15,245 nucleotides of DNA from positions 1 to 15,245 of the forward strand of contig JBDRPD010000098.1 in the NCBI GenBank assembly GCA_043827405.1, read 5' to 3'. Numbering within the stretch: the stretch's first letter is position 1; every line of letters begins with the position of its first letter. This document shows, in pieces, positions 1 through 9,000 of the stretch. The position numbers were made by a program. This stretch comes from Elusimicrobiota bacterium (GTDB lineage Bacteria > Elusimicrobiota > Elusimicrobia > UBA1565).

Positions 1-3000
1 GCCCCTCTAAAAAAAACGCTAGAATAATCATAATGAAATTTATCGAAGACGTCTGCATCCGCGCAAAAAAACTGAACAAGACCATCGTCCTGCCCGAGGC
101 CGAAGACACCCGCGTACTTAAAGCCGCGGAGCTTTTGACAAAGGGCAAAGTCGCCAAAATACTGCTGGCCGGCAAGACCGAGGCAATAAAGAGCATTGCC
201 GGGCGCCACCAGATAGACATATCTAACATAGAGATCGCCGACAACCTTTCCTCTCCGCTGGCTCCGGAATATGCCGAAAAGTTCGCCCAAAAGCGCGAAA
301 AGAAAGGCATGACCCTTGAAAAAGCCAAACAGCAAATCGCCGAAGACCCCATGCTTTTCGCCGGTCTGCTGGTCGAGCACGGAAAAGCGGACGGCATGGT
401 GGCCGGCGCTACGCACTACACTTCTGACACCATAAGGGTGGCGGTGCAAACCGTGGGACTGGCCAGCGGCAACACTATTATCTCAAGCTTTTTTGCCATG
501 CTCACGCAAATGAAACAATACGGTGAAGACGGCACGCTCTTTTTTGCCGATTGCGGGGTCATGCCCAACCCTAACGCCAAACAGCTTGCCGAGATCGCCA
601 TTACCACCGCGTCTTCGTTTATCCGCCTTACGGGGAAAGAACCGCGGGTGGCCATGCTTTCTTTTTCCACGAAGACCTCGGCCGTTCACAAAGATGTTGA
701 CAAGGTCGTTGAGGCCACAAAGATCGCCCAACAAGCAAAGCCCGATCTTTTGCTCGATGGCGAACTGCAGGTTGACGCGGCGCTGGTAGAACAGATAGGC
801 AAGCGCAAGGCGCCGGCCTCACCGGTGGCCGGCCAGGCCAACATTTTGATCTTCCCCGACCTGGACGCCGGCAACATTGGCTACAAGCTGGTCGAGCGGC
901 TGGGAGGCGCCATCGCGCTGGGCCCCATTCTTCAGGGATGCGCCAGGCCCATCAACGATCTTTCGCGCGGATGCAGTGTGGACGACATAGTGAACGTCGT
1001 CGCCATAACCGCGCTCCAGAGCCAGTAAAATGAACAAAGCCTACCTTGCCGCCCTTATAAAAACCTGTAAGAGCAAAGGCGCCGAAAGCGCCGAGGCCTA
1101 TCTGGTGTCGTCCCTGACCACAAAGGTGGATGTCCTCAATCAGGAGGTCGAGTCCGTTGACGAGATGAAAGAAAATGGCCTGGCCCTGCCCCGTGCGGGG
1201 TTTGGATGCTCTCATCGTCGTAGGAGAAGTGATTGCCGACGATCATCGACTCGGGGGACGGCGCGTCCTCGCTCAGGAAGGGCGCGCCCATCAGCTCGCG
1301 GGTTTCCTTGGGCGCGCCGTCCGCCGACTCGAGGTAGCGCTCCCAGAGCTTCCCTTCGCGTTTGAGCGAGAAGAAGAAGTAGCCGCGGCGTTTGCCCTCG
1401 CCGTCCCGGACCGCGGCGAACTTGGCGGGGTTTAAGACCTTGGTCAGGCCGAGCGGTTCCTCGGCGTGCGGGATCATCATGATCGAGGCCTTCCAGGCGA
1501 GGAGGCCGAGGTCGTAGTCGTAGCCGTAGAAGTTGGTGTCGGCGCCGGCGCTGACCACCGAGAAGCCGATCTCGACGGCTTTTTCCATCGCGATCAGGAA
1601 GGCGCGCTTCGAGAGGTCCATGGTCTTGGCGACGGGGCGGTGGGCGGCGTAGCCCATCGACAGGTAGCCGCGGTCCGGCAGCCCGATAAACAGCATGCCG
1701 CTGATCATCTCGTTGGTGTCGGGGTCGCGGAAAAAGACGCCGTACCAGTCGTCGAGCTTGCCGGCTTCCTGCTGGCGCCGCGCCCAGTCCTTGTCGAGGT
1801 GCATGCGGCCGCCGGGCTTGCCCACGACCTCGTCCATATAGATCGGATGCCACTCCTCGAAGTCTTCAACCGTCAGCCGCTTGAGCTCATGGGTGACCTG
1901 CTCGCTCTTCTTGAGGACCTTCTTGAACTTGCTGCGGTGCTTGCCGTTGAGCGAGGCGAGAAAATCGGCGATCGTCTGCGCCGGCCGCACCCAGCGCACC
2001 CAGCGCGGCTGGACGTAGTAGCCGTCCTCGTCGCGGTAGGTTTCCAGTTCGGCGCGCGAAGGGTTGCGGATATTGACGACATCGACGCCCAGCTCTTTGA
2101 GCTTGGCGTCGTACTCCGGCTTGTACTCGCCCTTTTGGAACTTGGCGAACTTCATGCCGCGCGGGCTAACGCTGATCTTGGCGGCGAGGTCGATGTCTTC
2201 GGCGCCCTGCTCGGGGGCGATCCGCATTTGGTGACGGCCGTAGATTTCGTCGATGTTGGCATACGCCTGCTGGTCGCTCGCGCCGTTGGCGACGATCAGG
2301 CCGACGCGGCTGCCGCCCTCATTGGGCAGGGCGACGTGGTCTCCCGCCTCCTTAAAGTAGCGCAGGGAGTGCAGGGCGTCGCCGGCGGGGCCGTTGAGCT
2401 TCACTTCCTTAAGGATGCCGGTGACGTCGGGGAATAGGAATTTGCCGGCCAGATGGGTGCGCGGCGCGCGCGCCTTGAAAACCGGGCCGGGCACCCCGAC
2501 CGCCGCCATGAAGGCCTCTTTGACGAGGTCCACGCCCCATACCGCCTCGACCCAGTCATGAACGTAGACGCCGCCCATGCGGGCATTGGCTTCGATGATG
2601 CGGGGGCCTTCGGAGGTCTGCTTGGCCTCAATATGGAATACGCCGTTGTCGAGGCCGATGGCGGCGGCGGTATTTACCGCCAAATCTTTAAGCGCCGCCT
2701 GGTCGTTCTCCGTCAGGCGGCTCGGCAGGTTCGAACCGGTCGCTATGAAATTGGGCCGCTGGGTCGGCCAGTTGTCGGTGACGGAGGCGTAGACCGCTTT
2801 GCCGCCGCGCATCACGACGTCGACATCCACCTCGTCGCCGTCCAGGTACTGTTCGAGCACCAGGCCGACATCGGTAGAGAAGGCGCCGTCGACGGCGGCC
2901 GTCCGCTCGATGTCCTTGAGCGCCTTGGCGTAGGCCAGCCGGGTCTCGACTTCGCTGTTTACCTCGAAGACCATTTTGGCCTCGGCTCCCGAGGCGGGCT

Positions 3001-6000: not shown

Positions 6001-9000
6001 GAATCGAATGCTCCGAGGTCAGAGCGATACCGGTGAAAAATCCATTGACCGCCGAGATGGCGAAGTAGAGGGGGATGGTCATGCTCCCGGTCAGGAGCAT
6101 GCCGACGAGAACGCCGAGGCTCAGGGCGCGGCCGATCTCGGCGCCGAGGAAGGTCTTCTTGAGGCCGAAATGGTCGGGCAGAACTCCGCCGACGGCGTTG
6201 CCGAGGATGCGGCCGCCCAGCGAGAAGAACATCACCGAGGCGTAGACGCTGAAATTGCCGTAGGTCTGCTTGATCAACTGCGGCATGCTCTGGCCGAAGA
6301 ACTCCTGGGCGATTTGCGCCAGTCCCAGCCCGCCGATGAAAGCGATAACGGCCTTGGTCCAGAAGCGGCCCTTGTCCTTCTTGTCTATGACCGGGGCGGC
6401 GGCTGTCTCGTCCGCCGCGGCCTGGACGCTTTCCTCGGCTTCGCTGATGGTGCGCTTGAGACCGTCGCGCAGACCGCCGGCCGCCGGGCCGCGGGAGACT
6501 TTATTTTCAATGCGGCGCAGGGATTCGACGGCCTTCTCGCCGCCCTTTTCGCTGATCGCCGCAACGGTTTTACGCAGGCGTCCCAAGGCCGCGGCATCCG
6601 CAAAGCGTCCTTCTTCGGATATGTCCGCGTACTGCTCGGCGGCCTGCGCTTCGAGATCTTCGAGCGTGACGTCCTCATGAGCGCTGACCGCGCCGGCGTC
6701 GGCCTTGCCGGAACGGGTAAACAGCGACTTGAGGGCGCCGAAGCGGGCGGCAGGGGAAGCGGATTTTTGAATGCGGTCGACCCCGGTCTGCAGGGACTTT
6801 CTGATTGCGGGTTTATGCGCTTTTTTCTGCTCTTTGACCGGCGGCGCCCGCGACGAATGGGCGGCGATGCCGACTGCCTGCGCTCCCGGGGCGGCGTTGG
6901 GGAGCACCTCGGTCTTGAGCGTCTTGGTCTGGATTACCGCCGGTCCGCCGACCTGTACGGAGGCGGTATGCTCAACGGTGGGCAGCGCGGTAGTTAAATT
7001 GAGATTCAGCTGGGTCCCGGGCTTAAGGGTTAGATCGGAGGCGGCGGCGCCCGCGACGCCGGCGGCGCCGGAGCCGAGACCCGGCTGGGCCACGCTCGCG
7101 GGAATCCTGCCGGTCACCGCGGCCAGCAGCCGGTACGGTTCCATGCCCGGCGCTAAGACAAGCATGGCGCCGGCCAAGCCGACGGCGATGATGCGTTTTG
7201 CGGTTTTTGCCTTCATTTCTTGACCTTCAACAAAGTATGGTTCGCTTGGCGGGGGGGCGCCTGAGCCAAAGGACGTATAGAGGAGGGACAGAGGACCTAA
7301 CCCCGGAGACCTATGCAATTATGGGGTCAGGCCTTGCGATTGTTGACTTCCCGGCCGGTGTGAGAATGTCAACAATCGCAAGGCCTGACCCCGCACGTTT
7401 GCTAAAATGATGGACCATGCCGCGCCCCCCCCGCAGGACTCAAGACATCCGCATTTTCACCGAGATCAAAGCCAAGCCGGAGAAGGTCTACCGCGCTTTG
7501 GTTTCGGCGCGCGAGCTCTGCGTCTGGCTCCTGGACCGGGCCGAGACGGATTCACGCAGCATGGGACGCATGCGCATGGTCTGGCCCGTCCGCGACAAGA
7601 AGAAGAGGGTGGAGGCGACCGGGGTGTTTGTGGACCTGGAACCAGGCAAAAAGGTGGCCTGGATATGGGATGAGCAGACGCGGCCAAGCGGCTTGCCGGC
7701 GCTGGTGACCGTCTTCATTGAAGAAAAGGGCTCCCGCTGTCAGGTTACGCTCGTACACGCGGGTTTTTCCGTCGCGCCGTCACGTGCCGGCCTGATCAAG
7801 GCCTATCGCGAAATGTGGGAGGACGTGCTCGTGAAGCTTAAGCTTTACCTGGAGTCCGGCCGCGTCTGCAAGGGCGACCGGCTGACCTTGGCCGATGCCG
7901 GACCGCGCAAGAAGTCGGGGCGGCGGGCGTGACCACGGCGGCGGTGATCCTGGCGGTGCTCGCGGGAGCGGTCCTGGGGGCTCTGGGCGTGTACGCGATT
8001 CTGTTCTCGGTGCGCAAGAACGCGGAGGCCGAGTCCCGCCAGCAGCGCGAAGAGCTTAAGGGGCAGTTCGCATCCGTGTCCGCGGACATCTTCACCAACG
8101 CGACCGACCAGTTCCTGAAGCTGGCGGAGAGCCGGCTGGCGACCGAGCGGGTCAAGGCGGAGGCCGGCCTGGAGGAGAAGCAAAAGGCCGTCGAGACCGT
8201 GGTCGGCCAGCTGCAGGAGCGGCTGCAGCGCTACGAAAAGATGATGCGGGACTTCGAGGCGGAGCGCTCCGAGAAGTACGGCTCGCTCGAGGAGCAGCTG
8301 AAAAGCGCCGCGCGGACGACGCAGGACCTGCAGCTTTCGACCGACAAGCTCGGCGCGGTCCTTTCCAACTCCCGGTCGCGCGGCCAGTGGGGCGAGCGTA
8401 TGGCCGAGGACATCCTGCGGGCGGCCGGCCTAATCGAGGATGTCCAGTACGTGAAGAACCGGGCCCAGGCGACGGTTTCGACGCGGCCCGATTTCACCTT
8501 CAATCTGCCCGATGATCACAAGATCAACATGGACGTGAAGTTTCCGCTCGACAACTATCTGCGGATGGACAACGCCGAGAGCGACGAGGATAAGGCGCGC
8601 TACAAGGCGGATTTCCTCAAGGACGTTAAGGCGCGCGTCAAGGAGATTCAGAACCGCTCCTATATCAACCCGGAGGAGCAGACGCTCGACTACGTGATCC
8701 TGTTTATTCCCAATGAGCAGGTCTACGGCTTTGTGCTCGAGAACCTGCCGGGCTACGTGGACGAGGCGCTGGCGCAGAAAGTGGTCTTGTGCTCTCCGTT
8801 CAGCCTCTACGCGGTGCTGGCCGTCGTGCGCCAGTCGTTTGAGAATTTCCACTTCAGCAAGGCGACGCGGGAGATGGTCAAGTTCGTCGGCTCCTTCCGT
8901 CAGGCGTACGAGAAGTTCAAGGTCCGTTTCGTGAAGCTCGGCGAGCAGATCGACAAGACGCGCGGCGCCTACGAGGAAATTACCGGGCCGAGCTATAAGA

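What a model noticed while it worked through the whole genome (the two positions that open the first line are those of the whole stretch)
1136..7216. Full-length two-domain homolog of animal carnosine synthase fused to MFS under the export leader
g03402 (2026 aa) holds an MFS transporter, a complete carnosine-synthase-1-type module with both ATP-grasp halves (about 790-1600, 30% identical to human CARNS1 over 798 aa) and a further C-terminal domain. The two-domain CARNS1 architecture has close prokaryotic relatives essentially only in this lineage.
Evidence so far: Swiss-Prot human CARNS1 E 6e-67 over residues 3-738. Of 53 hits at E<=1e-90 the named ones are Elusimicrobiota, one partial Polyangiaceae record and Mytilus carnosine synthase (31% over 99%). 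In the 50%-representative library two-domain hits are either signal-peptide-led (this lineage) or ~850-1100-aa eukaryote-like proteins, plus six leaderless MFS fusions. N-terminal half found in 29 of 61 order genomes, 2 of 4 f8, 0 of 135 other class members. Search 154 lists no bacterial two-domain homolog.
(Added by a program. Inside this text positions count along the whole contig: contig position 1 is position 1 of the stretch shown here. "Call 12" and the like, gene names such as g00115 and contig names such as C1 are that model's own, and its searches are not shown. The text may have been shortened before it was handed on; [...] marks where a part breaks off. The agent that wrote the report below was given it as the finding of a first reader that could run no searches.)

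Follow-up and report, generated by a model that had tools for sequence, protein, structure and literature searches.

The report
Three peptide-ligases fused to a transporter
An uncultured groundwater bacterium joins a membrane transporter to three different peptide-bond-forming enzymes in one protein; two of them form a sister family of animal carnosine synthase, but a cyanobacterial gene lying beside a beta-alanine-making gene is the closer bacterial relative.

Summary
The fusion is real and conserved: leader, 12-helix MFS, two ATP-grasp domains homologous to both halves of animal CARNS1 (about 30% identity), and a C-terminal domain. Four corrections. (1) The C-terminal domain is a Fem-type tandem GNAT, probably an aminoacyl-tRNA-dependent transferase; 24 of 25 order genomes with it also hold the ligase. 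(2) The halves differ: the N-half is RimK/LysX-like with its catalytic motif kept, the C-half is an L-amino-acid ligase. (3) The architecture is not confined to this lineage. Gammaproteobacteria-named records carry leaderless MFS fusions, and Microcoleus has a two-domain protein inside the CARNS1 clade, directly downstream of panD in two contigs. The query lies outside that clade and lacks its C-half signatures, so carnosine is an unlikely product. (4) The last 17 residues come from a contig misjoin at 1188/1189. MFS topology puts the enzymes in the cytoplasm, which conflicts with simple export by the leader. Best reading: a one-chain, NRPS-independent small-peptide synthetase-exporter, product unknown. 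The scan reported the MFS-double-ligase fusion before on other DNA (e1-4365206); the GNAT partner and the Microcoleus/panD relative are added here.

The parts
7118..7216 (-). Signal-peptide-like start of the lineage leader (residues 1-33)
   Evidence: Basic N-terminus, hydrophobic stretch 8-23; a profile built from 16 homolog N-termini hits 17 ORFs of this genome at E<=0.01, the query included
6362..7117 (-). Ala/Pro/Gly-rich then charged linker (34-285), no membrane-spanning segment
   Evidence: Best 19-residue window 0.43 kcal/mol per residue on a biological scale (values recalled), against -0.04 to 0.28 for 11 of the 12 best MFS windows
5006..6361 (-). 12-helix MFS transporter (286-737), canonical topology
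   Evidence: PF07690 E 8e-14; hand-placed helices give 44 K/R on the N-/C-terminal side and 1 on the other
3467..4864 (-). N-half: RimK/LysX/YheCD-type ATP-grasp domain homologous to the N-terminal half of CARNS1 (785-1250)
   Evidence: Model pLDDT 86.6; ArgX Z 21.8, LysX 21.5, RimK 21.4; K904, K979, D1197, E1213, N1215 invariant in 12 of 12 aligned rows
2201..3466 (-). C-half: L-amino-acid-ligase-type ATP-grasp domain with LAL_C2 (1251-1672)
   Evidence: Pfam; BL00235 E 6e-26 and BacD 2e-11, with BacD's catalytic-region Glu, Glu and Arg aligned to E1530, E1542, R1546 and W332 to V1550
1190..2200 (-). Fem-type tandem GNAT domain, probable aminoacyl-tRNA-dependent transferase (1673-2009; true end about 15 residues further, on contig C67)
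   Evidence: Model pLDDT 90.4; Foldseek FemX E 3.9e-9, Sbb17 9.2e-9; VIA Sbb17 Z 13.1, FemX 12.6; FemAB_like in 3, Acetyltransf_6 in 4, ATE_C in 2 of 14 members
1136..1188 (-). Artefactual last 17 codons and stop, read from the misjoined piece
   Evidence: Match to contig C67 ends at window 1189; the main contig of run X1 starts at 1189
1..1188 (+). Probably foreign or minority piece: pta (33-1028) and a pmbA/tldD start cut at the junction (1030-1188)
   Evidence: Depth 9 and 5.5 against 19.7; the genome has another pta on C91, 49% identical, and no rest of this pmbA; GC3 0.69 against 0.86 for the big gene, though about 10% of the genome's ORFs are as low
7417..12623 (+). Divergent neighbours (AHSA1-like, RmuC, methyltransferase, M16 peptidase): fixed locus in the family, no evidence of a shared pathway
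   Evidence: Pfam; same neighbours in L002, L003, L005, L007, L008, L019, L033

Best explanation
A single inner-membrane protein that makes a small peptide-like metabolite without an NRPS and exports it. Shown: four domains, catalytic motifs kept in both ATP-grasp halves, Fem-type fold of the last domain, canonical MFS topology, recurrent linkage of the parts. Inferred: the L-amino-acid-ligase half joins two free amino acids through an acyl-phosphate; the RimK/LysX-like half makes a second, different amide bond; the Fem-type domain adds one more residue from aminoacyl-tRNA; the MFS moves the product out. The order of steps and the substrates are unknown, and carnosine is unlikely. The leader most likely targets or tethers the chain rather than carrying the enzymes outside. 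The double ligase is the bacterial sister family of eukaryotic CARNS1, from one ancient fusion of a YheCD/RimK-type and an LAL-type domain.
For: E-x-N motif of the N-half in 39 of 42 and E-x-N-x-R of the C-half in 31 of 42 Elusimicrobiota-type rows, both in the query. Two MFS types without significant pairwise likeness (E 0.01) are fused before the same ligase; the second type is 42% identical to the leaderless type. GNAT in 25 of 101 order genomes, 24 of them among the 52 with the N-half; fused in 4, within about 5 kb in 10 more, and N-terminally fused in L044. Top folds are aminoacyl-tRNA transferases. K/R 44 against 1. A tree with all two-domain C-halves held together scored 2.85 log units better than the free tree, p-AU 0.545; N-halves form one group (100) against YheCD-like outgroups.
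Against: No biochemistry. The GNAT match is moderate (Z 12-13, rmsd 7-9 A; acetyl-CoA GNATs follow at Z about 11; Pfam hits are below cut-off or weak). 28 of 52 ligase genomes showed no GNAT and several ligases lack an MFS (L008, L013, L035), so parts are optional. No precursor-supply or tailoring gene is conserved nearby. The query has Gly at a nearly invariant Arg (1083) and Arg at a nearly invariant Gly (1195) of the N-half; a compensating swap is only a guess. Signal-like start and 0 Cys in 2026 aa (genome median 0.74%) are not explained. Direction of transport is not shown. Kin are not independent in the co-occurrence count.
Confidence: 0.47

Rival explanations
1. A true carnosine-type synthase: it makes beta-alanyl or GABA dipeptides as animal CARNS1 does and exports them.
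For: Both halves homologous and collinear, about 30% identity; the genome has panD; JGI auto-names some relatives 'carnosine synthase'.
Against: Outside the CARNS1 clade in three trees. Clade signatures in Elusimicrobiota-type against clade rows: EH-D-V-D type 0/42 vs 23/27; GG-F/Y-Y 0/42 vs 19/27; GGxSK 0/42 vs 17/27; N-V-E 2/42 vs 21/27; DNGP 1/42 vs 20/27. The BacD W332 position is Val, not Phe. panD is on another contig and in no ligase locus of this lineage fetched. The C-half is more like algal single-domain ligases (38-46%) than mammalian CARNS1 (32-36%).
Confidence: 0.12
2. The leader is a real export signal: the chain is delivered to a host or prey cell, the MFS enters that cell's membrane and the enzymes use its ATP and tRNA.
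For: Signal-like start shared by 17 ORFs with 0-4 Cys; 6 of 6 MFS domains behind a long N-terminal extension have no Cys, 15 of 15 others have 1-9; MFS-less forms and stand-alone N-halves also carry leaders; leaderless homologs have 7-19 Cys.
Against: MFS helices are as hydrophobic as those of the genome's ordinary MFS proteins (0.11-0.16 vs mostly 0.05-0.16), so they should be released into the cell's own membrane; no export machinery gene is conserved nearby; no host is known.
Confidence: 0.15
3. Import and trap: the MFS takes up an amino acid or peptide and the ligases fix it inside as a storage, osmolyte or salvage product.
For: Same topology and fusion logic; sequence does not give direction; the MFS is below family-level assignment.
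Against: Three different bond-forming domains suit building a product better than trapping one; the leaderless type shows only a weak H+-antiporter-family match (E 5e-4), which leans to efflux.
Confidence: 0.12
4. The enzymes modify a macromolecule (peptidoglycan precursor, lipid or protein tail) at the membrane, as Fem, MprF and RimK do.
For: Closest folds act on carriers or macromolecules: LysX/ArgX, RimK, FemX, MprF; one N-half is fused to peptidyl-tRNA hydrolase (P0102); relatives also hold LAL-Ddl fusions (L070).
Against: L-amino-acid ligases act on free amino acids (passages of PMC6920838, and recalled); patchy occurrence (52 of 101) argues against a core wall role; no wall-synthesis neighbours.
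Confidence: 0.12

Closest known systems
Carnosine synthase 1 (CARNS1/ATPGD1, EC 6.3.2.11) of animals
   Same: Two collinear ATP-grasp halves, about 30% identity, shared N-half motifs and junction helix
   Different: Sister group, not a clade member; lacks five C-half signatures; keeps LAL_C2; fused to leader, MFS and GNAT. Mammalian N-half motif is eroded, the query's is kept
L-amino-acid ligases BL00235 (3vot) and BacD/YwfE (3vmm)
   Same: C-half fold, ATPgrasp_N and LAL_C2, catalytic-region Glu/Glu/Arg
   Different: Single-domain soluble enzymes; Val instead of Trp332; no N-half
RimK/LysX/ArgX, DcsG, glutathione synthetase, YheC/D-like ATP-grasps
   Same: Fold of the N-half (Z 20.5-21.8); remote sequence relatives are YheCD-like
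   Different: 14-15% identity; 466 residues with insertions; no Pfam, NCBIfam or PDB sequence match for the N-half
FemX/FemA, Sbb17/Sba18, MprF and ATE1 aminoacyl-tRNA transferases
   Same: Tandem GNAT fold, invariant G-L-x-x-x-K near the end (likeness to the Fem motif is recalled)
   Different: 9-17% identity, rmsd 7-10 A; extra C-terminal subdomain; tied to a double ATP-grasp ligase
Microcoleus two-domain ATP-grasp protein (WP_333170054.1 cluster; uncharacterised)
   Same: Both halves, bacterial, N-half motif kept
   Different: Inside the CARNS1 clade, leaderless, no MFS, downstream of panD in L083 and L085

Membership tests
CARNS1 family | Two tandem ATP-grasp halves homologous to CARNS1 | tested here: met
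CARNS1 family | Falls inside the clade of animal and protist CARNS1 | tested here: not met
   Clade at 100 (FastTree), 99 (C-half), 95/99 (N-half) excludes the query; quick trees without mixture model
CARNS1 family | C-half signatures of that clade (derived here) | tested here: not met
   Query has none of six; lineage rows 0-4 of 42 each
CARNS1 family | Single origin of the two-domain fusion with CARNS1 (sister relation) | tested here: inconclusive
   N-halves group at 100; C-halves unresolved, monophyly not rejected, p-AU 0.545
CARNS1 family | Makes beta-alanyl-histidine | not testable with these tools
   Needs assay
L-amino-acid ligase (C-half) | ATPgrasp_N + ATP-grasp_4 + LAL_C2 with catalytic Glu/Glu/Arg | tested here: met
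   (LAL_C2 23.4 bits, below its 29.4 cut-off in the query; above it in P0069, P0117)
ATP-grasp, RimK/LysX type (N-half) | Fold and K, K, D, E-x-N residues | tested here: met
   top five Z values are tied within about 1, so no single subfamily is assigned
Fem-type aminoacyl-tRNA transferase | Tandem GNAT fold | tested here: met
Fem-type aminoacyl-tRNA transferase | Sequence-family membership above cut-off | tested here: inconclusive
   Query alone no Pfam hit; members FemAB_like best E 5e-5, Acetyltransf_6 3e-4; Atlas 0.95-0.97 to Acetyltransf_6 clusters
Fem-type aminoacyl-tRNA transferase | Uses aminoacyl-tRNA | not testable with these tools
   Needs assay
MFS transporter | 12 helices, N-in/C-in, motif A in loop 2-3 | tested here: met
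   (helices placed by hand)
Sec-exported protein | Cleavable signal followed by a translocated mature part | tested here: inconclusive
   Signal-like start and no Cys, but no return helix before an N-in MFS; no signal-peptide predictor was available

The most novel reading that the evidence does not exclude
The double ATP-grasp architecture of carnosine synthase arose in bacteria as a two-step peptide synthetase with both halves active. One branch (Elusimicrobiota, passed to some Gammaproteobacteria) became single-chain synthetase-exporters with up to three chemistries, including a tRNA-dependent step, making an unknown peptide; the other gave eukaryotic CARNS1 and a panD-linked cyanobacterial beta-alanyl-peptide synthase. 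The N-half of animal CARNS1 would then be a once or still active second ligase.
Probability: 0.35. Interest if true: 0.8.

Novelty: new variant of a known kind. Interest (0 to 1): 0.6.

Why it matters
It gives the long N-terminal half of carnosine synthase a fold class, intact bacterial versions and stand-alone forms that can be assayed, and it names bacterial relatives on both sides of the CARNS1 branch, which bears on the disputed origin of the gene (PMC5422933 lists it as a claimed protist transfer and rejects that). A chain with two ATP-grasp ligases, a tRNA-dependent transferase and a transporter would be an unusually compact NRPS-free peptide factory in an uncultured phylum. The Microcoleus gene beside panD is a direct candidate for bacterial carnosine-type synthesis.

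Tried and rejected
Halves as a tandem duplication: rejected, the N-half is nearer RimK/LysX (Z 21-22) than LAL (Z 15.2). Gene end at 1136: rejected. Lineage-only distribution: rejected. The all-species genome scan gave 47 loci, 44 titled Elusimicrobia, 2 'bacterium', 1 'delta proteobacterium', but its two patterns were lineage-specific and cannot match Microcoleus or the degenerate leaderless type, so it is no evidence of absence. Reduced MFS hydrophobicity as a sign of export: not found. A second AU test (two-domain rows without the Microcoleus group) did not finish in two runs. No PDB sequence match for the N-half or GNAT profiles, and no CARNS1 structure among hits. No plasmid match for P0126. 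No RNA holder listed. Metagenome loci L083 and L085 could not be opened as genomes. Drozak 2010 was not held. The 820-900-aa C-half paralogs first taken for MFS fusions are LAL-Ddl fusions. No complex prediction was run, as no binding is claimed.
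Full report
Observation. The frame 7216..1136 on the minus strand is open for 2026 codons. Pfam finds MFS_1 at 297-692 and an L-amino-acid-ligase set at 1272-1660; residues 785-1250 and 1673-2009 hit nothing in Pfam or NCBIfam. The fusion is not an assembly accident: run X1 (a possible source) has one contig over 1189-5736 without differences, run X2 of another study covers most of 1309-6725 at about 99%, and the same four-part protein occurs in G002, G016 and G011.

The gene end is wrong in this window. Window 1189-1438 matches the start of contig C67 (248 of 251 bases), which goes on for 15 codons to a stop that resembles the ends of homologs L002 and L003. 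Left of 1189 lie a pta gene and a cut pmbA start at about half the depth or less (9 and 5.5 against 19.7); the one contig that crosses the junction has only 30 bases beyond it. The genome has another pta, 49% identical. GC3 of 0.69 is low but not decisive (about the 10th percentile of 1520 crudely called ORFs). The true protein is about 2024 aa.

The two halves. Both match mammalian CARNS1. They are different enzymes. The C-half is an L-amino-acid ligase; BacD's Glu, Glu and Arg of the catalytic region align to E1530, E1542 and R1546, and Trp332, named as a substrate-pocket residue in a passage of PMC6920838, aligns to V1550. The N-half model (pLDDT 86.6) is closest to ArgX (Z 21.8, rmsd 3.2, 276 aligned), LysX, RimK, DcsG and glutathione synthetase, with the LAL 3vot at 15.2; remote sequence relatives are YheC/D-like. 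K904, K979, D1197, E1213 and N1215 are invariant in 12 rows, and the E-x-N motif stands in 39 of 42 lineage rows and 18 of 27 CARNS1-clade rows. The N-half also occurs alone behind a leader (L045-L047). The query itself has Gly at a nearly invariant Arg (1083) and Arg at a nearly invariant Gly (1195).

The last domain. Its model (pLDDT 90.4) is a tandem GNAT; Foldseek ranks FemX (E 3.9e-9), Sbb17, L-PGS and Sba18 first, VIA-align Sbb17 (Z 13.1, rmsd 6.9, 215 aligned) and FemX (12.6), with acetyl-CoA GNATs at about 11. Of 14 members, 3 hit FemAB_like, 4 Acetyltransf_6 and 2 ATE_C, all weakly. Such enzymes use aminoacyl-tRNA for peptide ligation (passages of PMC2922099). In 101 order genomes the domain is in 25 and the N-half in 52; 24 of the 25 have both, fused in 4 and within about 5 kb in 10 more. 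Kin are not independent, and 28 ligase genomes showed no GNAT.

The transporter and the leader. Hand-placed helices give 44 K/R on the side of both termini and 1 on the other; the linker has no helix that could recross the membrane. The enzymes should therefore face a cytoplasm. Two MFS types without significant likeness (E 0.01) precede the same ligase, so the coupling arose or was replaced more than once. Against a simple picture, the protein has no cysteine in 2026 residues (median 0.74% over 700 long ORFs), a leader profile hits 17 ORFs with 0-4 Cys, and 6 of 6 MFS domains behind long extensions lack Cys while 15 of 15 others have some (21 of 22 places used, one with an internal stop left out). 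Their helices are not less hydrophobic. The leader's role stays open; the cysteine test followed a lead from earlier notes.

Distribution and trees. The N-half is in 30 of 401 phylum genomes, 28 in the order and 2 in f8. Outside: P0055 and P0218 are named Gammaproteobacteria, leaderless MFS fusions; nine such rows nest within the lineage clade, and none keeps the N-half E-x-N motif. The genome behind L045 is titled a delta proteobacterium, and its RecA is 67-70% identical to three lineage RecAs that are 77-89% alike. Eukaryotic two-domain proteins were named in molluscs, mammals, Ancyromonas, Petalomonas and Chlorokybus. The cluster of P0126 (18 members, 15 listed) is Microcoleus, on contigs up to 328 kb. 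I named only 30 of the 150 listed representatives and relatives, so other bacteria may hide among the rest (P0150, P0158, P0146, P0151 are unnamed). In a 78-row tree of both halves (178 rows thinned by similarity), a 75-row C-half tree and a 59-row N-half tree, Microcoleus lies inside the CARNS1 clade (100, 99, 95/99) and the query outside. Holding all two-domain C-halves together gave a slightly better tree (p-AU 0.545), so one origin is allowed, not shown. The trees are quick LG models with composition warnings. Raw similarity alone does not separate the two: alignment scores to a bat CARNS1 are 727 (query) and 741 (Microcoleus), to a mollusc 814 and 1028. Motifs do: five clade signatures stand in 17-23 of 27 clade rows and 0-2 of 42 lineage rows; Microcoleus has four of the five. 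In both metagenome loci that reach upstream with that arrangement, L083 and L085 (of 5 fetched; L084, L086 and L087 show no such neighbour or are cut), the gene follows an aspartate decarboxylase gene at about 100 bases; PanD yields beta-alanine (established knowledge). The query genome's panD is unlinked.

Mechanism. Most likely a cytoplasm-facing synthetase-exporter: LAL half, RimK-like half and Fem-like domain each add an amide bond, and the MFS exports the product (0.47). Domains, motifs, topology and linkage are shown; substrates, order and direction are inferred. Rivals: delivery to another cell (0.15), carnosine-type synthesis (0.12), import and trap (0.12), macromolecule modification (0.12).

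Literature. Ten full-text searches listed no paper on a bacterial two-domain CARNS1 relative or on this fusion; several were broad, only the top 8-25 rows were seen, and most subscription journals are missing. Seen as passages: PMC9137727 (CARNS1 is a cytosolic ATP-grasp ligase), PMC11591149, PMC6920838, PMC5422933 (a table row on claimed transfer of CARNS1), PMC2922099, PMC3249071, PMC6271292; as abstract and outline: PMC13674229. Drozak 2010 could not be read, so what it says on the two halves or on bacterial homologs is unchecked; no supplements were read.

Verdict. Real, conserved and apparently undescribed in print; a sister of carnosine synthase, not a member; not lineage-unique; richer than first read because of the tRNA-type transferase. 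New variant of a known kind, interest 0.6.

Noticed in passing
L083:5289-8486 and L085:7397-10577: Microcoleus-type two-domain CARNS1-clade gene directly downstream of panD; L083 has a tandem paralog (2170-4527), and Ddl-like ATP-grasp, methyltransferase and ABC exporter genes lie near in L083/L084. Best candidate for a bacterial beta-alanyl-peptide synthase.
   Followed up: partly
window 1-1188: Low-depth piece with pta and a cut pmbA/tldD start, joined to the gene's 3' end; contig C67 holds the real continuation and an iron-alcohol-dehydrogenase gene.
   Followed up: yes
P0055, P0218, P0077, P0084, P0087, P0088, P0090, P0095, P0048, P0215, P0219: Leaderless MFS-double-ligase clade (two named Gammaproteobacteria) nested in the Elusimicrobiota clade, with the N-half motif lost in 9 of 9 rows counted and the C-half motif kept in 3 of 9: transporters with pseudo-enzyme tails.
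   Followed up: partly
L045:7308-9353, L046:4249-6369, L047:2-2020: Leader plus N-half alone; L045 lies on a 1.65-Mb contig of a genome titled delta proteobacterium whose RecA is unlike the lineage's, so the leader may have moved between phyla.
   Followed up: partly
P0060: Chlorokybus two-domain protein with an N-terminal M20-dipeptidase-like region (NCBIfam PRK07907 E 8e-17, below cut-off), the family of carnosinases; may be a fused gene model.
   Followed up: no
P0102, P0081, P0089, P0085: N-half fused to peptidyl-tRNA hydrolase (P0102), to an IQCH/PGM1-type ATP-grasp (P0081, P0089), or within a GNAT-MFS-ligase-CAAX protease-sigma70 chain (P0085).
   Followed up: no
P0264, P0284, P0298 and relatives: Single-domain LAL family of green algae (about 600 aa) and Actinomycetota (about 430 aa), 36-46% identical to the C-half and often auto-named carnosine synthase, though it lacks the N-half.
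   Followed up: partly
L068-L077: LAL + D-Ala-D-Ala-ligase-like fusions of 820-900 aa in many relatives, a second double ATP-grasp architecture.
   Followed up: partly
G160:C12:12532-13893: The module sits inside a 5940-aa frame in a family-f8 genome.
   Followed up: no
window 5709-5759: Run X2 differs strongly over about 50 bases in the MFS central loop while the rest is about 99% identical.
   Followed up: no
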